Assembly: GCA_043718505.1 (NCBI GenBank)
Contig: JAYSVN010000029.1
Span: 1-48,580, forward strand
From: Minisyncoccota bacterium
Lineage (GTDB): Bacteria > Patescibacteriota > Minisyncoccia > Phycocordibacterales > UBA9973
Length of the DNA: 48,580 bases
Direction: 5' to 3'
The notes beneath the pieces were generated by a model that was given only the letters and a program-made list of their open reading frames with translations, was not told the DNA's origin and made no database searches. Both the position numbers and the translations under genes were made by a program. This document shows, piece by piece, positions 2,078 through 34,583 of the stretch (position 1 is its first letter; each line of letters begins with the position of its first letter).

Positions 2078-3535
2078 TTATTTACTGAAATTTCTCTTTG
2101 GTCCGCCTGATCTACTCGGTGAAGATCCGGGTTTTGAAAACCTGCTACTCGATGAACTTCGCTTTGCATAACCGCTGGATTTTGAAAATGAGCGCTGTGG
2201 GCGTTGTGCACCGCCTGAACGTTGCGAACCAAACGATTGCGCACCGAAAGGACGCGATCCTGATACACCATGGTGCACTGGCGGGCGTGATGAGTCGCCG
2301 CGCGAGGAGCGAAATCCGCCTGGTCGTGAAGAACCACTGCGGGATGATCCTGATCTTGGATTACTGCCTTGATAATTTGAAGGTGCTGCTGAAACACCTG
2401 GCAAATCACTCGGCAATGGTGTCATCTTAATTGGTTTGCGAATAAGACGCTCAATATCTTTAATATCTTTTCGCTCTTCAGGCGTAGCAAAAGAAATCGC
2501 ATGACCGGCAGCACCTGCACGGGCAGTTCGGCCGATGCGGTGAACATAATCTTCTGACTGGCTCGGTAAATCAAAGTTGATGACGAGTTCAATATTTTTG
2601 ACATCGATTCCGCGCGCCACAATATCAGTCGCAACTAGCACGCGATACTTACCTGCTTTAAATCCTTCAAGTGCGGCTTTGCGTTGATTGAGTGAACGGT
2701 TTGAGTGAATTTCAGCAGCGGTGTGACCCATATGCATGACTTTGTAGGCAACTTTAGTTGCGCCGTGTTTAGTACGAGTAAAAATAATTGCCGAGCCCTT
2801 GTAATCAGTGAGAACTTTTTCAAGCAAGCGTAATTTGTCATCGCGCCGTACTACAAAAATTTCCTGCGTAACATTTGCGGCAGTAGTTCCTTGTGGTGCA
2901 ATTTCAATTTGCAAAGGAATTTTCATAGCTTTTGTTGCAATAGTCAAAATTTCAGCCGAAAGAGTTGCCGAAAAAAGCATTGTTTGACGCTCAGTCGGAA
3001 TTGCGGCAAGAATTTGTTTGATCGAAGGCAAAAATCCCATGTCGAGCATGCGATCAGCTTCGTCGAGTACAAGGAATTTTACCTTACTGAGGTTTACGTT
3101 TTTATTTTCCATGTGATCGATGAGACGACCAGGAGTTGCTATGACAACCATTGGATGACGCTTGAGTGCAGCAATTTGTGGACGCATCGGTGCACCACCA
3201 ATGAGTACAACAGGACGAACACCGAGTGGCGTACCAACTTTTGAAAATGTTTCTTCGACTTGGAGTGCTAGTTCACGTGTTGGAACAACAATAAGCGCCA
3301 TACCGGTGCCGGAAAGAAGACCCTGAATAACAGGTATGCCAAAAGCCAGGGTTTTACCTGTTCCTGTCTGTGCAATACCGACAATATCTTTACCTGCGAG
3401 CGCAGGCGCAATTGCCTGTTCTTGAATTGGAGTCGGAGTCGTATATGCGATTTTATCTAAGATCGTAAGGAGGTTGGGCGCGATGCCAAGATTCCGAAAC
3501 GTTGGGCCATTAGCGCCCGGGGTTGGTATATTCAT
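2078..3535 (-). CDS. DEAD-box ATP-dependent RNA helicase with an RGG/SR-rich C-terminal tail
   Basis: Q-motif region TPIQ, Walker A AQTGTGKT, DEAD (VLDEADRMLDMGF), SAT, ARGID and HRIGRTARAG motifs. The C-terminal ~90 aa are low complexity (SRSGSSRPGGFRSSRGDSSRP...). Confidence 0.93.
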   Translation of the reverse strand: MNIPTPGANGPTFRNLGIAPNLLTILDKIAYTTPTPIQEQAIAPALAGKDIVGIAQTGTGKTLAFGIPVIQGLLSGTGMALIVVPTRELALQVEETFSKVGTPLGVRPVVLIGGAPMRPQIAALKRHPMVVIATPGRLIDHMENKNVNLSKVKFLVLDEADRMLDMGFLPSIKQILAAIPTERQTMLFSATLSAEILTIATKAMKIPLQIEIAPQGTTAANVTQEIFVVRRDDKLRLLEKVLTDYKGSAIIFTRTKHGATKVAYKVMHMGHTAAEIHSNRSLNQRKAALEGFKAGKYRVLVATDIVARGIDVKNIELVINFDLPSQSEDYVHRIGRTARAGAAGHAISFATPEERKDIKDIERLIRKPIKMTPLPSDLPGVSAAPSNYQGSNPRSGSSRSGSSRPGGFRSSRGDSSRPPVHHGVSGSRPFGAQSFGSQRSGGAQRPQRSFSKSSGYAKRSSSSSRFSKPGSSPSRSGGPKRNFSK

Positions 3536-3641
3536 TACTTAGGTTGTGAATATACCATGGTTTGGGTTATTTAGCAATTTTTAAGTGTTTTTAATATTTA
3601 ATTAAGATTTTATTAATAGCAATCCCGGTACTATATTAGCT

Positions 3642-4328
3642 ATGACATCAAAATGGATACAATTAAAACCCCAGGCTATCGCCCTTAGACTCGAGGGTAC
3701 ATCCATAAGAGAAATCGAAAAATTGCTTGGAATTGCTCGATCGACTTTAAGTGGGTGGCTAAAAGAAGTAATTATTCCAGAGGAGAATAGACAAAAACTC
3801 AGAACACCCATATGGAAAAATTTGGAAAAGGGGCGGGTAAATGCAATTGCTTGGCATAATATGCAGAAACAGAATCGTTTACTGGCAGCTAAAACTGAAG
3901 CTGACAGACTGCTGCTATTGATTGATTTTACAAATATTATTATTGCAAAGTTATTTTTATCTTCTTTATATCTAGGTGAAGGGAGCAAGAAAAGTATTGC
4001 AACTTCTATGGGTAACAGCGACCCACTTATTCTTAAATTTTTTATTGAATCACTTGTTCATTTATATAAAGTAGATAGAAATACTATTAGGTTTGATTTA
4101 CACCTTCGAGCAGACCAGGATGGTGATACATTGAAAATATATTGGGCTAATCAGTTAAATCTGCCAGTTCAAAACTGTAGGACAATTTCTTACGACAAAA
4201 GAACAGTTGGCAAAACAACATACCCAGATTATAAAGGAGTATGTTTAGTACGCGGTGGCTCAGTTGCGATTCAAAGAGAATTAGTATATCTTAGTAGAGG
4301 ATTTATAAAGAAATTCTTGCGCGGTTAG
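3642..4328 (+). CDS. HTH + LAGLIDADG-like (homing-endonuclease-like) protein, paralog A
   Basis: N-terminal resolvase/sigma-r4-type HTH (LRLEGTSIREIEKLLGIARSTLSGWLK). A degenerate LAGLIDADG motif LYLGEGSK follows, then NSDP...YW.N and a G.VRGGSV block that resemble the I-CreI-type core. It is clearly homologous to ORF 33864-34469. The stop codon (4326-4328) lies inside the 5' end of tRNA-Val. Confidence 0.6.
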   Translation: MTSKWIQLKPQAIALRLEGTSIREIEKLLGIARSTLSGWLKEVIIPEENRQKLRTPIWKNLEKGRVNAIAWHNMQKQNRLLAAKTEADRLLLLIDFTNIIIAKLFLSSLYLGEGSKKSIATSMGNSDPLILKFFIESLVHLYKVDRNTIRFDLHLRADQDGDTLKIYWANQLNLPVQNCRTISYDKRTVGKTTYPDYKGVCLVRGGSVAIQRELVYLSRGFIKKFLRG

Positions 4329-4392
4329 CTCAGTTGGTACGAGCGCGCCGTTGACGTCGGCGAGGTCGCAAGTTCGATCCTTGCACCGCGCA
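4319..4392 (+). tRNA. tRNA-Val (anticodon GAC)
   Basis: Hand-folded cloverleaf. Acceptor GCGCGGT/ACCGCGC, D-arm GCTC..GAGC, anticodon stem CGCCG/CGGCG with loop TTGACGT, T-arm GCAAG-TTCGATC-CTTGC, discriminator A. No CCA is encoded. Confidence 0.85.
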
Positions 4393-4422
4393 CACTACAA
4401 TACTGCTTCTGGATTCAAGAAG

Positions 4423-29417: not shown

Positions 29418-29864
29418 ATGGAAAAATTCTTTCTAAGTATAACCGCTCAGAAAATCCGGCGACTTAACAAAGTAGAGAAAATCTGGTTGGGTGATCATTT
29501 CTCGGAACAAACATTGACACCTAATCTCTCTCGAAGACCAATGAAGGTCAGGTTAAAACACTTTGAATTCGGTAAAAATATCATGACTAGTAAGCTGGCT
29601 CAACTTATTTTAAAAGCTGCAAATAAGCCAAGTTTTTGCCTTGATATTGAAACCAGCTCGTTCGGCTTTTATCCGATCTTTGCTCTCATCCATATTCCAA
29701 AAGGCAGTGGCCTGAATTGTGAAGTCATTAAATGGACAGATGGGTTAATGCCGGAAGAAACACACAAAATTCTGCTCAGGAAAACGTATTCTATAGCCAA
29801 TAAATTCAAACGGACTTTAGCGGGGCTAGAAAAGCTATACGAGCTAAGCCATTACGAATACTAA
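29418..29864 (+). CDS. hypothetical protein (148 aa) with a possible DEDD Exo-I-like motif
   Basis: ORF between two tRNA-Leu genes with its own terminator. The segment FCLDIETSSFGFYPIFALIHI resembles the Exo I motif of DEDDy exonucleases, but no Exo II/III motifs follow. Confidence 0.4.
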   Translation: MEKFFLSITAQKIRRLNKVEKIWLGDHFSEQTLTPNLSRRPMKVRLKHFEFGKNIMTSKLAQLILKAANKPSFCLDIETSSFGFYPIFALIHIPKGSGLNCEVIKWTDGLMPEETHKILLRKTYSIANKFKRTLAGLEKLYELSHYEY

Positions 29865-29887: not shown

Positions 29888-29934
29888 TACCGGTTTTGTA
29901 AAAATGCTTTCAAAATGTATAGTTAGGGCCATGC

Positions 29935-30016
29935 CGTGGTGGCGAAATTGGCAGACGCACTACGTTCAGGTCGTAGCGAGAGCAATCTCGTGGGAGTTCA
30001 AGTCTCCCCCACGGCA
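29935..30016 (+). tRNA. tRNA-Leu (anticodon CAG)
   Basis: Acceptor GCCGTGG/CCACGGC, anticodon stem CTACG/CGTAG with loop TTCAGGT, long variable arm, T-arm GGGAG-TTCAAGT-CTCCC. Confidence 0.85.
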
Positions 30017-30023
30017 CATAGTT

Positions 30024-30935
30024 ATGCAAACAGGAATTAAAGAAAAAATCAGCGCAGCGCCAGTCGGCAAAACAAAAAGTGTAAAACAAAAGCCACTCGT
30101 CATGGCTATTGTCGGACCAACAGCAATCGGTAAATCGGCATATGCAATCGGTCTCGCCAAAAAGGTAAACGGTGAAATTATTTCAGCTGATTCACGACAG
30201 GTATATAAAGGCCTTGATATAGGATCGGGAAAAATTGCTAAAAAAGAAATGGGTGATATTCCGCACCACATGCTCGACGTGGCAAAACCTTCCCAGATTT
30301 TTTCAGCGCATGATTTTAAAACTGGGGCCGGAAAACATATTGAAGATATTCTCGCTCGGGGCAAAACACCAATTATAGTTGGCGGTACTGGTTTTTATGT
30401 TGATACACTTTTTGGTACCTGGAATTTACCTGATGTGCCGCCAAACATTGCTTTGCGAAAGAAACTAGAGAAAGAAAGTGCCGAAAAACTTTTCAAAACG
30501 GTTGAAAAAATTGATCCTGCACGCGCCAAAATGCTTGATCCAAGAAACAAGGCTCGGCTCATTCGTTCGATTGAAATTGCAAAAGCAATCGGCAAAGTAC
30601 CAAAAATTACAAAGAAAAAACTGCCCTACCAGGTTGTCTGGATTGGTTTGAAATCTAGCCGTGATGTTTTGCGTAAAAAAATAGCCGCTCGCACCAAAAA
30701 ACAACTATACCAGGGCATGATTGAAGAAGTCGCCGAACTTCACCAAAACGGTTTAAGTTGGAAACGCCTCCATGCGCTTGGGCTTGAACAAAGGCTGTGC
30801 GCAATGTATTTGCAGGGTAAAATTACCAAAGCAGAACTGGAAAAAATGTTACTCGATAAAATTTATCAATATGCTATTCGTCAAATGCGCTGGTTTGGCA
30901 GGAATAAAGAAATTGGGTGGGTTGAGGTGAAATAA
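30024..30935 (+). CDS. miaA: tRNA dimethylallyltransferase
   Basis: P-loop GPTAIGKS and the SADSRQVYKGLDIGSGK motif. The track ORF begins inside tRNA-Leu(CAG); I moved the start to the Met at 30024. Confidence 0.88.
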   Translation: MQTGIKEKISAAPVGKTKSVKQKPLVMAIVGPTAIGKSAYAIGLAKKVNGEIISADSRQVYKGLDIGSGKIAKKEMGDIPHHMLDVAKPSQIFSAHDFKTGAGKHIEDILARGKTPIIVGGTGFYVDTLFGTWNLPDVPPNIALRKKLEKESAEKLFKTVEKIDPARAKMLDPRNKARLIRSIEIAKAIGKVPKITKKKLPYQVVWIGLKSSRDVLRKKIAARTKKQLYQGMIEEVAELHQNGLSWKRLHALGLEQRLCAMYLQGKITKAELEKMLLDKIYQYAIRQMRWFGRNKEIGWVEVK

Positions 30936-31113: not shown

Positions 31114-32639
31114 TTAGTATCCCGGGAAATAATCCGTTATTATTTTCTTTTTCTCAATACCCATTTTCCCAAGCATACTTTCATAATTCTCAACCATAGC
31201 ATCAGGTCCCGACAGATAAAATGTTCGCTCAGAAAAATCAGGAATAATACGCCTAATCATTTCGGGAGTAATACGTCCGGTCTCGCCCTGCCAATCTTTA
31301 TTCGGCTCTGAAACAATATACGTAGTTTTGAGTCCGATTTCATTTTTTACTTTTTCAAATAGATCCTGATAGGCAAAATCTTTTTCAGTGACGGCCTGAT
31401 AGAAAAGATGAATATTCCTTTTTTCGTGTTTATCCGCTAAATATTTAATCATGCTGCGATATGGCGTAACACCAATGCCTCCTGCAATGAAGACTAATTT
31501 TTCAGCAGTATTTTTTGGTAAAACAAAATCGCCGGCTAAATGTGAGGATATAAATTGATCTTTTTCTTTTATATTGAATAGTTTCTTCTTAAACGTACTC
31601 CCCTTATCCTGATCTATTTTTGTAGAAAGATGAATTTCTTTTTCCGTTGGCGATGAGGCAATAGTGAAGAATCTCCTATTACCTCTTGTGTCTGGTTTAT
31701 CATGAGGCAATGTCCATTCCAGATACTGTCCTGGTTTAAAAAAAAGTTTCTGGTCGGGTAAAAAAGCAAAGTCATATATTTTACTTGAAAGCTGTTTGCG
31801 CTCCAGAAAGCGAAGTTTTAATTTTAATTTATAACTAGCTAGGTAAGAAAAAATGTTACCGATAATGAGTGACATTTCGGGCGTCGCATAAACTGTGCCG
31901 ATACGCAATTGTGAAGAAAAAAGTGCGCCGACAATTATTCCGTAGATAATTTGATTTTTCTTTGTTGGCGGTGTAGTGAGAGGTTCGGTAAACATAATGA
32001 GACCGAAGAAAATGAGCTGCCAGGAAAAAATTATTTCTTTTATAAACGCGGCGGCGCTAACATTACTCGGTAAAACATAAACAAAAATTGCCACAACTAT
32101 ACTTGCCAGGGAAAATGCCAAAACCATGGCTCCTCGACGAAGCTTTCTGACGATAAGGAGACCGATTACAAGAGTAAAAATATTGAGTACAGGATTGGCC
32201 ATCCACCAAATAACTGCCCCGCTACCGATTAAACCAATAATAACTGCCGTAACTGCGGCGGGATTAAAAATGTGCTTTCGCTTAATCGCTAACACATATT
32301 TCGAAAGCATAGCAATAACAGCTGCACCGGCTAGAATGAGAGCATTGTGAACACTGGTCGCCGGCTGAAGTAAAAAGAAAAGAATGAAGCCGGTTATCCA
32401 AACTGATTCAACGTTGCGAGGAGCCTTCCAAAGTTTAGAAAAAATAACATTTGAGAAATTAGCAAAAAATAAAATAATCACTATCGACAAAATAAGCGCC
32501 AGGCCGGAAAAGCTAAATTGCCTGGCAAATCCAAGTACAAATGCTATCAAAGCCAGCAGAGATAGCCCGTACAGAACTAGTCTGTACATGGTTATACTAT
32601 TGAGAAATTTGTCGATGCGATTTATTGAGGTTGTCATGA
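31114..32639 (-). CDS. membrane-embedded oxidoreductase: polytopic TM domain fused to an FNR-like FAD/NAD(P)-binding domain
   Basis: About 270 aa of TM helices, including a KHIFNPAA segment. The C-terminal FNR module follows, with RRFFTIASSP (the RxYS FAD motif) and IAGGIGVTPYRSM (NAD(P) GGxGxxP). Start set at MTTSINR (32637-32639). Confidence 0.7.
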
Positions 32640-32641
32640 TG

Positions 32642-32815
32642 TGGGCAATTGAGGAATCGAACCTCACTCCGAGAAATAATACTTCCCGTTCGGCTAAAGC
32701 CGACCACGCTGCCCGTAACCCCGCCGAAGCGGGGCTCGAGCGTTGCGCCGCAATAATATTGAAGCGTTGAGCTCTTGACCTACGTCGTCTTACGACGACA
32801 TTGCAGGCCCGTTTG
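32642..32815 (-). ncRNA. unassigned structured RNA element with a tRNA-like 3' end (T-arm and acceptor 3' strand) and GNRA/UUCG-capped hairpins
   Basis: On the minus strand the segment ends ...TGAGG-TTCGATT-CCTCA-ATTGCCC-A, a canonical T-arm plus 3' acceptor strand. It is preceded by the hairpins CGTCGTC-GTAA-GACGACG, CCCCGC-TTCG-GCGGGG and TCGGC-TTTA-GCCGA. I could not find a proper 5' acceptor strand, D-arm or a sensible anticodon. The boundaries are approximate. Confidence 0.35.
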
Positions 32816-33799: not shown

Positions 33800-33863
33800 G
33801 GTATTTACATTTATTTTATTTAAAATAAAGATTTCCTTTATCTCTGTTTGGTATAATTACTGG

Positions 33864-34469
33864 ATGCCGAGATTAGACCAGAAATTATATCCTCAAATAA
33901 AAGCTCTTTACGAGAGTGGTTTTCCAATGACTAGAATTGCTAAGCATTACAACGTAACACTTGATACTGTTACATATGCCATGAGAAAGGGTAAAATTCC
34001 TCGTAGAAATATGAAAGAGGTACAAGCACTTAGGTTTAAACAAAAAATTCCATCATTCACAATCAACAAACCCAAGACGCAGGCTGAAAAAAATATCATT
34101 ACTACGGGTGTAGCTTTATATTGGGCTGAAGGCTATAAAACAAACAGGGCCAAAGGTATAGATTTTGCAAATAGTGATCCATCAATGATTTTGGTATTTA
34201 TGAAATTTCTTCGTACCTGTTATGAATTAGATGAAAGTCGATTGAGGGCCTCATTGTATGCCTATAGTGACCAAAACATTAATGAGCTTACAGATTATTG
34301 GAGTAATGTAACTGCTATTCAGAAATCACAGTTCATAAAGCCATATATTCGGACTGATTTTAAAATATATGGCAGAAAAATGAAGTACGGCCTTGTTCAT
34401 GTTCGATATAATGACAAAAAGCTACTTTTTGATATAATGGGGCGCATCGAGGTTTTGAGACGAGAATAA
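33864..34469 (+). CDS. HTH + LAGLIDADG-like (homing-endonuclease-like) protein, paralog B
   Basis: N-terminal HTH (ESGFPMTRIAKHYNVTLDTVTYAMRKGK), the motif LYWAEGYK, NSDP...YW.N, and a KYGLVHVRYNDKKL block. It aligns with ORF 3642-4328 along the whole core. Its stop codon is 1 nt before tRNA-Tyr. Confidence 0.6.
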   Translation: MPRLDQKLYPQIKALYESGFPMTRIAKHYNVTLDTVTYAMRKGKIPRRNMKEVQALRFKQKIPSFTINKPKTQAEKNIITTGVALYWAEGYKTNRAKGIDFANSDPSMILVFMKFLRTCYELDESRLRASLYAYSDQNINELTDYWSNVTAIQKSQFIKPYIRTDFKIYGRKMKYGLVHVRYNDKKLLFDIMGRIEVLRRE

Positions 34470-34470
34470 T

Positions 34471-34554
34471 GCGCCGGTGGCGGAGTGGTCAATCGCATTT
34501 GGCTGTAAACCAAACGTCCTCGCGACTACGAAGGTTCGAATCCTTCCCGGCGCA
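34471..34554 (+). tRNA. tRNA-Tyr (anticodon GTA)
   Basis: Type II tRNA. Acceptor GCGCCGG/CCGGCGC, anticodon stem TTTGG/CCAAA with loop CTGTAAA, 15-nt variable arm, T-arm GAAGG-TTCGAAT-CCTTC. Confidence 0.85.
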
Positions 34555-34583
34555 CAAATAAACTGAACTTTAAAAACTGAAAA

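What the first reader, a model, noticed from the sequence alone, without database searches (positions are those of the whole stretch)
3642..4392. HTH + LAGLIDADG-like protein whose stop codon lies inside tRNA-Val (paralog A of a tRNA-associated family)
The 228-aa ORF has an N-terminal resolvase/sigma-r4-like HTH, then a shortened LAGLIDADG-type motif (LYLGEGSK) and later blocks (DLHLRADQ..., YKGVCLVRGGSVAIQ) that resemble the I-CreI-type homing-endonuclease core. Its reading frame runs 10 nt into the acceptor stem of tRNA-Val(GAC), so ORF and tRNA are almost certainly one transcript. A clear paralog (33864-34469) has the same spatial relationship with tRNA-Tyr 30 kb away. Homing-endonuclease-like genes placed systematically at the 5' flank of intact, intron-less tRNA genes are not a standard arrangement. 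They could be domesticated intron or free-standing endonucleases, tRNA-targeting selfish elements, or proteins involved in tRNA 5' processing.
Basis: partly seen in the sequence, partly recalled or inferred. Interest (0 to 1): 0.7.

Follow-up and report, generated by a model that had tools for sequence, protein, structure and literature searches.

The report
Homing-endonuclease-like genes lodged before tRNAs
A gene for a DNA-binding, homing-endonuclease-like protein sits between a tRNA gene and its promoter and ends inside the tRNA, and this layout recurs across hundreds of ultra-small (Patescibacteria/CPR) bacteria, most likely as an undescribed selfish DNA element that lives in tRNA leaders.

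Summary
ORF 3642-4328 (228 aa) ends with a TAG that is nucleotides 8-10 of tRNA-Val(GAC) (4319-4393). A 25%-identical paralog (33864-34469) ends 1 nt before tRNA-Tyr. This is not coincidence: 77 of 80 homolog loci from Patescibacteria have tRNA-Val(GAC) within -35 to +17 nt of the stop, and at least 67 of 80 paralog loci have tRNA-Tyr there. More distant paralogs precede tRNA-Trp, Gly(GCC), Thr(GGT) and Ser(CGA).

Best reading (about 0.55): a free-standing LAGLIDADG homing-endonuclease family that lives in tRNA 5' leaders. Cleavage activity and target are untested. I found no published description.

The parts
3629..3637 (+). -10-like element (TACTAT / TATATT) of the promoter that drives ORF A, 4-7 nt before the ATG. 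No Shine-Dalgarno sequence is present.
   Evidence: Read from the sequence. In 49 of 54 homolog loci with a sigma-70-like site, the -10 hexamer ends exactly 6 nt before the ATG. GGTACTAT is shared with the tRNA-Val promoter of the HEG-less relative L161.
3642..4328 (+). ORF A, 228 aa: an HTH + long helix + single LAGLIDADG-like domain protein (the tRNA-Val-linked subfamily).
   Evidence: There are 518 homologs at about 50% identity, all from Patescibacteria. dN/dS is 0.05-0.13.
3657..3758 (+). N-terminal three-helix HTH (residues 6-39).
3780..3920 (+). Long single helix (residues 47-93) linking the HTH to the nuclease-like domain.
   Evidence: AlphaFold model with pLDDT above 90. The helix is shorter in family B.
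3936..4322 (+). LAGLIDADG-like domain (residues 99-227). Order of elements: helix, strand, helix, strand, inserted helix and strand, strand, helix.
3966..3989 (+). Motif L-Y-L-G-E-G-S-K (residues 109-116). E113 is the candidate catalytic acid and K116 is invariant.
   Evidence: Invariant columns Y110, G112, E113, G114 and K116. The motif is kept in every subfamily. The equivalent Glu of B aligns with I-DmoI E117 (the I-DmoI sequence was checked).
4319..4393 (+). tRNA-Val(GAC). Its nucleotides 8-10 (TAG, 4326-4328) serve as the stop codon of ORF A.
   Evidence: The same overlap occurs in 45 of 80 loci.
33849..33857 (+). Extended -10 (TGGTATAAT) of ORF B, ending 6 nt before the ATG.
   Evidence: Sequence.
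33864..34469 (+). ORF B, 201 aa: the paralog (tRNA-Tyr-linked subfamily), with motif LYWAEGYK at residues 85-92.
34411..34438 (+). Promoter-like site inside the 3' end of ORF B (ATGACA-16-TGATATAAT, 11 of 12 matches). It may be tRNA-Tyr's own promoter.
   Evidence: In family B, 10 of 56 loci have a site of at least 10/12 in this position, against 3 in a mid-ORF control.
34471..34555 (+). tRNA-Tyr(GTA), intron-less, starting 1 nt after the stop of ORF B.

Best explanation
ORF A and its paralog B belong to a large Patescibacteria-specific family of free-standing homing-endonuclease genes. Each protein has an N-terminal HTH and one divergent LAGLIDADG domain, so it would have to work as a homodimer.

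Each subfamily has colonised the 5' leader of one particular tRNA gene: Val-GAC, Tyr-GTA, Trp-CCA, Gly-GCC, Thr-GGT or Ser-CGA. The gene sits between the tRNA's promoter and tRNA nucleotide +1. It is transcribed from that promoter as a leaderless mRNA fused to the tRNA. RNase P then cuts the tRNA away. The insertion therefore costs the tRNA little, much as an intron or intein spares its host gene.

The protein is proposed to cut alleles of that tRNA gene in other genomes, so that the gene is copied in during repair. Where the tRNA carries a group I intron at position 35/36, endonuclease and intron could help each other ('collaborative homing').

Shown here: the fold similarity, the conserved Glu, the fixed position, the promoter geometry, purifying selection, presence/absence polymorphism and tRNA-fragment scars. 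Inferred: DNA cleavage, its target, dimerisation, co-transcription and homing.

For: 2. Active-site-like residues are kept. The Glu of LYxxEGxK is invariant in A, in B and in all other subfamilies and aligns with catalytic E117 of I-DmoI. WhiA, the domesticated relative, has lost these residues (my own knowledge).

3. Site specificity. 77 of 80 A loci abut tRNA-Val(GAC) and at least 67 of 80 B loci abut tRNA-Tyr. Other subfamilies abut Trp, Gly, Thr and Ser tRNAs.

4. The gene is optional. In the window's own clade (Obg 76-83% identical), L161/162, L163, L164, L166 and L167 keep tRNA-Val between Obg and the DEAD-box helicase gene (DEAD) but have no family member. The window and L001/L165 have one. 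Occupancy of the other tRNAs is patchy: Gly-GCC 3/12, Trp 4/23, Ser-CGA 1/14.

5. Scars.
- L147 has a perfect 36-nt repeat of tRNA-Tyr nucleotides 1-36 on both sides of the ORF.
- L164, L166, L167 and L163 have tRNA-Val 5' fragments or pseudo-tRNAs exactly where the ORF sits in the window.
- L141 has tRNA fragments around the ORF.
- Broken copies occur in L066, L133 and L160.

6. The gene evolves faster than its neighbours: 57% identity against 80-84% for Obg and DEAD between the window and L001. Selection is still purifying, with dN/dS 0.05-0.2.

7. Expression anatomy. The -10 box ends 6 nt before the ATG in 49 of 54 loci. Thr-linked copies start right after the 3' end of tRNA-Tyr.

8. Precedents. 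T4 SegB is a free-standing endonuclease in a tRNA cluster that recognises TpsiC-arm DNA (PMC2330249). F-CphI shows collaborative homing (PMC6083498).

9. Introns. Group I introns at 35/36 occur in 6 of about 70 tRNA-Tyr genes next to the ORF, against 1 of 95 complete genomes in PMC13011429 (Fisher p=0.04, different data sets).
Against: - No nuclease activity or target is shown.
- The strand order departs from the canonical alpha-beta-beta-alpha-beta-beta-alpha by an insertion.
- Nearly all copies are intact, and the family-A tree partly follows taxonomy. That pattern also fits a vertically inherited host gene.
- Most adjacent tRNAs have no intron. If the target were the anticodon arm, the host's own tRNA gene would be cleavable, and no protective polymorphism was found.
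- In HEG+ genomes the tRNA is inverted relative to most HEG-less relatives, so the empty and occupied sites are not related by a simple insertion.
Confidence: 0.55

Rival explanations
1. Domesticated DNA-binding protein. A WhiA-like transcription factor built from a nuclease fold binds its own promoter or the tRNA gene and regulates the tRNA operon. It no longer moves.
For: - The promoter spacer of family A is conserved at the nucleotide level (ATTCG[A/T]ACCACTGA between -35 and -10) although the proteins are only about 50% identical. That would fit an operator.
- dN/dS is about 0.1.
- Almost all copies are intact.
- The tree partly tracks taxonomy.
Against: - The gene is absent from five of seven related lineages that keep the same tRNA at the same locus, so it is dispensable.
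- It is hard to see why at least six separate tRNA species would each need a private regulator in genomes this reduced.
- The catalytic-type Glu is invariant, unlike WhiA.
- The window's own promoter lacks the conserved spacer motif.
- Autoregulation and homing are not exclusive: I-TevI does both (my own knowledge).
Confidence: 0.2
2. RNA-level helper. The protein acts like a LAGLIDADG maturase, binding its own ORF-tRNA precursor to aid 5' processing, folding or group I intron splicing of the cognate tRNA.
For: - ORF and tRNA are probably one transcript.
- Some downstream tRNA-Tyr and tRNA-Thr genes carry group I introns.
- LAGLIDADG maturases are known in organelles (my own knowledge).
Against: - About 90% of the adjacent tRNAs are intron-less, including both in the window.
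- HEG-less relatives have near-identical tRNA-Val genes.
- Patescibacteria tRNA introns self-splice in vitro without protein (PMC13011429).
- The HTH plus saddle-like fold and the DNA-level scars point to DNA, not RNA.
Confidence: 0.1
3. Coincidental or artefactual adjacency. An ordinary small regulator gene happens to lie next to a tRNA in a compact genome, or the ORF is not a real gene.
For: Patescibacteria genomes are compact and overlapping genes are common (my own knowledge).
Against: - The same tRNA species lies within -35 to +17 nt in 77 of 80 independent genomes, although the flanking genes differ.
- There are 2,440 representatives at E<=1e-10.
- Selection is purifying.
Confidence: 0.02

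Closest known systems
Single- and double-motif LAGLIDADG homing endonucleases (I-DmoI, I-CreI, I-MsoI, I-CeuI, and LAGLIDADG enzymes encoded in rRNA insertions of CPR bacteria)
   Different: No match to any Pfam LAGLIDADG model. There is a roughly 40-residue insertion between the last two core strands, and an added N-terminal HTH plus long helix. The gene lies in the 5' leader of a tRNA gene, not inside an intron or intein. The rRNA-intron enzymes of CPR are a different, Pfam-recognisable set (PMC13011429 and its reference 33).
WhiA (sporulation / cell-division transcription factor)
   Different: WhiA has two degenerate LAGLIDADG domains, a C-terminal HTH and no catalytic acids, and it is a conserved housekeeping gene (my own knowledge). 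Here there is one domain, an N-terminal HTH, an invariant Glu, and the gene is optional.
Phage T4 SegB
   Same: It is a free-standing homing endonuclease gene located among tRNA genes. It recognises tRNA-gene DNA (the TpsiC stem-loop motif) and drags neighbouring tRNA genes along when it moves (PMC2330249).
   Different: SegB is a GIY-YIG enzyme from a phage. It is not fused to a tRNA leader, has no tRNA-species-specific subfamilies and is not found in cellular genomes.
F-CphI / psbA intron 'collaborative homing' in cyanophage S-PM2
   Same: A free-standing endonuclease gene lies next to a gene whose group I intron interrupts the endonuclease's target (PMC6083498). The same layout is seen here in L099, L101, L103, L122, L136 and L147 (tRNA-Tyr) and in L107 and L154 (tRNA-Thr).
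   Different: F-CphI is an Endo VII-type enzyme targeting a protein-coding gene in a phage. Here most adjacent tRNAs, including both in the window, have no intron.
Mitochondrial 'tRNA punctuation' of polycistronic transcripts
   Same: mRNAs abut tRNAs with no spacer, are leaderless, and would be released by RNase P and RNase Z (my own knowledge). Thr-linked copies start right after tRNA-Tyr and end at tRNA-Thr.
   Different: This is a processing analogy only. It has not been shown experimentally here, and in many copies the stop codon lies inside the tRNA.

Membership tests
LAGLIDADG endonuclease superfamily | Core domain fold (helix packed on a four-stranded antiparallel sheet, alpha-beta-beta-alpha-beta-beta-alpha) | tested here: met
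LAGLIDADG endonuclease superfamily | Motif helix ending in a conserved acidic residue (metal ligand) followed by Gly | tested here: met
   E113-G114 (A) and E89-G90 (B) are invariant and present in all subfamilies. hhalign pairs B E89 with I-DmoI E117, at E=0.011 and low probability.
LAGLIDADG endonuclease superfamily | Sequence match to curated models (Pfam LAGLIDADG_1/2/3, LAGLIDADG_WhiA; NCBIfam) | tested here: not met
   No such hit at E<=1 in any of 66 members. A PDB profile search finds only HTH proteins.
LAGLIDADG endonuclease superfamily | Two motif helices at a dimer or pseudo-dimer interface | not tested
   Only one domain per chain, so a homodimer would be required. No multimer prediction was available.
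LAGLIDADG endonuclease superfamily | Mg-dependent cleavage of an 18-22 bp site leaving 4-nt 3' overhangs | not testable with these tools
   Needs enzymology.
Free-standing homing endonuclease gene (mobile element) | Optional gene at a fixed site: present or absent among related genomes | tested here: met
   The window and L001/L165 have it. L161/162, L163, L164, L166 and L167 lack it at the Obg-tRNA-Val-DEAD locus. Occupancy of Trp, Gly and Ser tRNAs is patchy.
Free-standing homing endonuclease gene (mobile element) | Enzyme cuts the allele lacking the gene, and the gene is copied in by repair | not testable with these tools
   Indirect evidence only: tRNA 5'-half duplications flanking or replacing the ORF.
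Free-standing homing endonuclease gene (mobile element) | Horizontal spread (gene tree conflicts with host tree) | tested here: inconclusive
   The NJ tree is star-like and partly follows taxonomy. The gene diverges faster than its neighbours (57% against 80-84%). No host marker tree was available.
Collaborative homing (F-CphI type) | Free-standing endonuclease gene next to a target gene interrupted by a group I intron | tested here: not met
   Not met in the window: both tRNAs are intron-less. Met in a minority of related loci: 6 of about 70 tRNA-Tyr and 3-4 tRNA-Thr.
WhiA | Two degenerate LAGLIDADG domains plus a C-terminal HTH, with the catalytic acids lost | tested here: not met
   One domain, an N-terminal HTH and a conserved Glu.
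T4 SegB-like (GIY-YIG) tRNA-cluster endonucleases | GIY-YIG catalytic domain | tested here: not met
   No GIY-YIG hit in Pfam or PHROGs and no phage homolog.

The most novel reading that the evidence does not exclude
tRNA 5' leaders are a third 'self-erasing' niche for homing endonuclease genes, alongside introns and inteins. The gene is inserted between the tRNA promoter and +1, translated from a leaderless mRNA whose stop codon is supplied by the tRNA itself, and removed from the tRNA precursor by RNase P. Each subfamily recognises the near-palindromic anticodon arm of one tRNA gene, cutting around position 35/36, the same site that Patescibacteria group I introns occupy. This would tie the origin and spread of those tRNA introns to this family.
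Probability: 0.3. Interest if true: 0.85.

Novelty: new variant of a known kind. Interest (0 to 1): 0.74.

Why it matters
- It would add a large family of candidate site-specific DNA enzymes that no domain library recognises: 2,440 clusters at 50% identity with E<=1e-10.
- It would show that selfish endonuclease genes can hide in the leader of a tRNA, using tRNA processing instead of splicing to stay harmless.
- It would explain hundreds of 'hypothetical proteins' whose predicted C-termini are really translated tRNA sequence.
- It gives a testable link to the unusually frequent tRNA group I introns of Patescibacteria, most of which lack endonuclease genes of their own (PMC13011429).
- If each subfamily reads one tRNA gene, the family is a natural set of related enzymes with different, known targets. 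That is useful for studying how LAGLIDADG specificity evolves and for enzyme engineering.

Tried and rejected
- Sequence libraries gave nothing beyond the HTH: Pfam, NCBIfam, PHROGs, PADLOC, and PDB phmmer and profile searches.
- Foldseek against the PDB gave only weak OmpA-like and IspF hits with TM<0.3. I rejected these as noise caused by the long helix.
- tblastn against 50,697 phage records found no match, so this is not a phage-borne family in that collection.
- I looked for a third paralog in the window and found none. The ORF 29418-29864 between two tRNA-Leu genes is unrelated.
- I tested whether HEG+ genomes protect themselves through D-arm polymorphisms in the tRNA. The window and L001 do have odd D-loops. 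However, many HEG+ loci have the canonical D-arm, because their read-through tails spell AVSSVGRA. Rejected.
- I looked for 5'-half repeats around the ORF in all loci. Only L147 has one.
- I considered that the ORF might lie inside a tRNA intron. Rejected for the window, because the downstream tRNAs are complete cloverleaves. The 5'-exon repeat in L147 leaves that history open for some relatives.
- I asked whether the conserved promoter spacer of family A is a relic of an inverted T-arm (ATTCGAACC-CTGA). This is suggestive but unproven, and the motif is absent from the window's own promoter.
- Synteny outside the closest relatives is not conserved, so empty sites could only be recovered by anchoring on Obg.

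Full report
**1. The observation**

ORF A occupies 3642-4328 on the + strand (228 aa). ARAGORN places tRNA-Val(GAC) at 4319-4393 and Rfam confirms a tRNA at 4319-4392. The paralog runs 33864-34469 (201 aa) and ends 1 nt before tRNA-Tyr(GTA) at 34471-34555. The two proteins are homologous (BLASTP E=4e-11, 25% identity). tblastn finds no third copy in the window.

**2. The adjacency is conserved, not chance**

ORF A has 518 homologs of about 230 aa at roughly 50% identity. All come from Patescibacteria/CPR metagenomes and none has a Pfam domain. Several have C-terminal tails such as AVSSVGRA, which is simply the translation of a tRNA D-arm.

I fetched 80 loci from species-representative genomes. 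In 77 of them tRNA-Val(GAC) lies on the same strand directly after the gene.

| Distance from stop to tRNA +1 | Loci |
|---|---|
| -10 nt | 45 |
| -35 nt (stop is then U33-G34-A35 of the anticodon loop) | 9 |
| -21 to -23 nt | 4 |
| 0 to +17 nt | 19 |

Of the three exceptions, L069 has a tRNA that only Rfam detects, L061 ends at the contig edge, and L054 appears to be a true exception.

Family B has 439 homologs. In 80 metagenome loci, 61 have tRNA-Tyr(GTA) directly downstream. Most of the rest have a tRNA-Tyr that ARAGORN missed. Six carry a roughly 200-nt group I intron at position 35/36 (L099, L101, L103, L122, L136, L147). Three have an unusual D-arm (L115, L120, L123).

An HMM scan of all loci found more distant paralogs in the same position before other tRNAs:

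- tRNA-Trp(CCA): L066, L106, L127, L134
- tRNA-Gly(GCC): L005, L019, L055
- tRNA-Thr(GGT): L142, L158, and L107, L154, L156 where the tRNA-Thr carries an intron
- tRNA-Ser(CGA): L031

An exhaustive profile search counts 2,440 cluster representatives at E<=1e-10 and 5,249 at E<=1e-3. Some of the weakest may be HTH-only matches.

**3. What the protein is**

Pfam, NCBIfam, PHROGs, PADLOC and PDB sequence searches recognise only the N-terminal HTH. AlphaFold2 models built with family alignments are confident: A has pLDDT 95.8 and B has 94.0. Both show an HTH, a long helix and a C-terminal alpha/beta domain.

hhalign aligns B's ALYWAEGYKT with I-DmoI 112-GLYVAEGDKT-121. The pairing is weak statistically (E=0.011), but it agrees with the structural matches. 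It places the invariant Glu (E113 in A, E89 in B) on I-DmoI E117, the catalytic acid of its second motif (its role is my own knowledge).

The LYxxEGxK, NSDP and FWS motifs are kept in every subfamily.

The order of secondary-structure elements differs from the textbook fold by an inserted helix and strand before the last core strand. I therefore call this a divergent single LAGLIDADG-like domain. With one domain per chain, it would need to dimerise, which I did not test.

**4. How it is expressed**

In family A the 60 nt before the start codon have the consensus tTTGa.tATTcGaACcActGAtgaTATaAT.tATAc|ATG. A sigma-70-like promoter scoring at least 9/12 is present in 54 of 77 loci. Its -10 hexamer ends exactly 6 nt before the ATG in 49 of those 54. 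There is no room for a ribosome-binding site, so the mRNA should be leaderless (inference).

Family B shows the same geometry in the largest group of loci. The window's ORF B has TGGTATAAT followed by 6 nt and then ATG. The Thr-linked subfamily starts immediately after the 3' end of tRNA-Tyr (..CACCCA|ATG). The window's ORF A has a weaker version: GGTACTATATT, then 4-7 nt, then ATG.

Promoter-like sites just before the tRNA, inside the ORF, are uncommon in A: 19 of 77 at 9/12 or better, against 6 of 77 in a mid-ORF control. None is found in the window's ORF A. Co-transcription of ORF A and tRNA-Val is therefore the likely route. ORF B in the window has a strong internal site at 34411-34438, so tRNA-Tyr may also be made independently.

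When the stop lies inside the tRNA, RNase P cleavage at +1 would leave an mRNA without a stop codon. Whether this limits expression is unknown.

**5. The gene is optional and leaves scars**

Synteny is not conserved across the 80 loci, apart from L001. I therefore anchored on the neighbouring Obg gene and fetched loci from the window's closest relatives.

| Locus | Obg identity to window | Family member |
|---|---|---|
| Window | 100% | Present |
| L001/L165 | 80% | Present (57% identical to the window's ORF A; DEAD 84%) |
| L161/L162 | 83% | Absent |
| L164 | 80% | Absent |
| L163 | 78% | Absent |
| L166 | 76% | Absent |
| L167 | 76% | Absent |

The five lineages without the gene all keep tRNA-Val(GAC) between Obg and the DEAD-box helicase gene (DEAD). 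hmmsearch finds no family member in them at E<=1.

Four of those five HEG-less alleles carry degenerate copies of the tRNA's 5' part immediately upstream of the intact gene:

- L164, L166 and L167 have fragments of 38, 35 and 34 nt, all beginning GCGCGGTTAGCT.
- L163 has two tandem pseudo-tRNA units of about 57 nt, in the position and orientation that the ORF has in the window.

An exact 11-nt 5'-end duplicate within 150 nt upstream occurs in only 6 of 359 tRNAs in all loci. Three of those are these tRNA-Val genes; the chance expectation is about 0.01.

In L147 the ORF is bracketed by a perfect 36-nt direct repeat equal to tRNA-Tyr nucleotides 1-36. The upstream copy abuts the ATG. The downstream copy is the real 5' exon, followed by the intron. 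The L164 fragment also ends in the anticodon loop. L141 has tRNA fragments on both sides. L066, L133 and L160 hold frameshifted or interrupted copies, although assembly error cannot be excluded for these.

Occupancy of the other tRNA species is patchy. Intact copies are under purifying selection, with dN/dS 0.05-0.2. The family-A tree is star-like and partly follows taxonomy.

**6. Interpretation**

The evidence in favour of a free-standing homing-endonuclease family specialised on tRNA genes is:

- a nuclease-type fold with the acidic residue conserved;
- strict site specificity, with separate subfamilies for different tRNA species;
- dispensability among close relatives;
- occasional broken copies;
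- break-and-repair-like tRNA fragment duplications.

Its residence in the tRNA leader would make it nearly harmless, because tRNA processing removes it from the tRNA.

Two candidate targets remain.

- *The anticodon arm.* It is a 17-bp near-palindrome that suits a homodimer. Its centre is position 35, where the L147 and L164 repeats end and where Patescibacteria group I introns sit (PMC13011429).
- *The promoter/leader-tRNA junction.* The insertion itself disrupts this site, which would explain self-immunity in the intron-less majority.

I could not decide between them.

The layout with an intron in the adjacent tRNA matches 'collaborative homing' (PMC6083498). Introns are somewhat more frequent next to the ORF than in published complete genomes: 6 of about 70 against 1 of 95 (p=0.04). 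The two data sets are different, so this is weak evidence.

The main rival is a WhiA-like domesticated regulator. It is favoured by the conserved promoter spacer (a possible operator), the intactness of the copies and the partly vertical tree. A homing enzyme can also autoregulate, so the two readings overlap. A maturase or tRNA-processing role is least likely, because HEG-less relatives carry near-identical tRNAs and most adjacent tRNAs have no intron.

**7. Comparison with the literature**

Full-text searches found no description of this arrangement. The recent survey of Patescibacteria tRNA introns reports the Tyr 35/36 and Thr 36/37 introns. It notes that most tRNA introns lack endonuclease genes, but it looked only inside introns.

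The closest precedents are T4 SegB, a GIY-YIG enzyme in a phage tRNA cluster that recognises T-arm DNA (PMC2330249), and F-CphI. I rate this a new variant of a known kind: a Pfam-invisible LAGLIDADG-like family in a new genomic niche, in cellular genomes, at phylum scale.

Noticed in passing
L016, L060, L077, L084, L092 and others, 41-60 nt before the start codon; L161 5421-5429; none in the window: A DnaA-box-like motif (TGTGNATAA / TTATNCACA) sits just upstream of the -35 in 12 of 79 family-A and 11 of 71 family-B loci. The background rate is one per 17.8 kb. It also occurs upstream of HEG-less tRNA-Val promoters, so it may be a feature of tRNA promoters in these bacteria.
   Followed up: partly
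Family-A loci, -32 to -18 relative to the ATG (for example L007 3969-3983): The promoter spacer ATTCG(A/T)ACCACTGA is conserved at the nucleotide level and resembles the reverse complement of a tRNA T-arm (GGATTCGAACCTCTGA). Its function is unknown: operator, homing half-site or tRNA relic. The window's own promoter lacks it.
   Followed up: partly
L003 328-344, L027 2734-2752, L032 3516-3532, L041 3599-3614, L043 3363-3379, L111 1883-1898, L153 3743-3760: The last 16-24 nt of a tRNA are repeated 80-250 nt downstream on the same strand. They look like attachment-site scars of very small insertions.
   Followed up: no
window 32641-32714 (-): ARAGORN calls a tRNA-Asn with the anticodon ATT. Rfam's tRNA model does not match it, and it overlaps the 5' end of ORF 31114..32667. 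It is probably a false call.
   Followed up: partly
window 29418-29864 (+) and 29904-30017: A 148-aa ORF with no Pfam hit fills the spacer between tRNA-Leu(CAA) and tRNA-Leu(CAG). It is unrelated to the family studied here. The longest reading of the MiaA-like ORF (29904..30935) starts inside tRNA-Leu(CAG), and that tRNA is missed by Rfam at gathering score.
   Followed up: partly
L161 5042-5395, L164 5021-5389, L166 5083-5430, L168 4875-5225 (all - strand): Relatives that lack the endonuclease-like gene share a conserved 115-122-aa ORF without any Pfam hit between Obg and tRNA-Val. The window has no counterpart.
   Followed up: partly
L107 34-927, L138, L154 1074-1913, L158 2728-3579, L141 2-853: The tRNA-Thr-linked subfamily has a second HTH at its N-terminus (about 280 aa). 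It exactly fills the gap between tRNA-Tyr and tRNA-Thr, with no spacer on either side.
   Followed up: partly
L012 678-803, L032 (upstream of tRNA-Glu at 3032, - strand), L128 1776-1900: An 11-13-nt exact copy of a tRNA's 5' end lies 71-126 nt upstream of the intact tRNA-Ser(CGA), tRNA-Glu(TTC) and tRNA-Thr(GGT). These may be remnants of lost insertions.
   Followed up: no
L167 7209-8981: An HTH gene, an Endonuclease_7 gene and a LexA/N6_N4-methylase gene lie next to tRNA-Ser and tRNA-Glu. This is another mobile-looking patch beside tRNA genes.
   Followed up: no
L136 1744-1859: Rfam match to LOOT RNA (RF03000; 49.8 bits against a gathering score of 46.4), downstream of intron-containing tRNA genes.
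   Followed up: no
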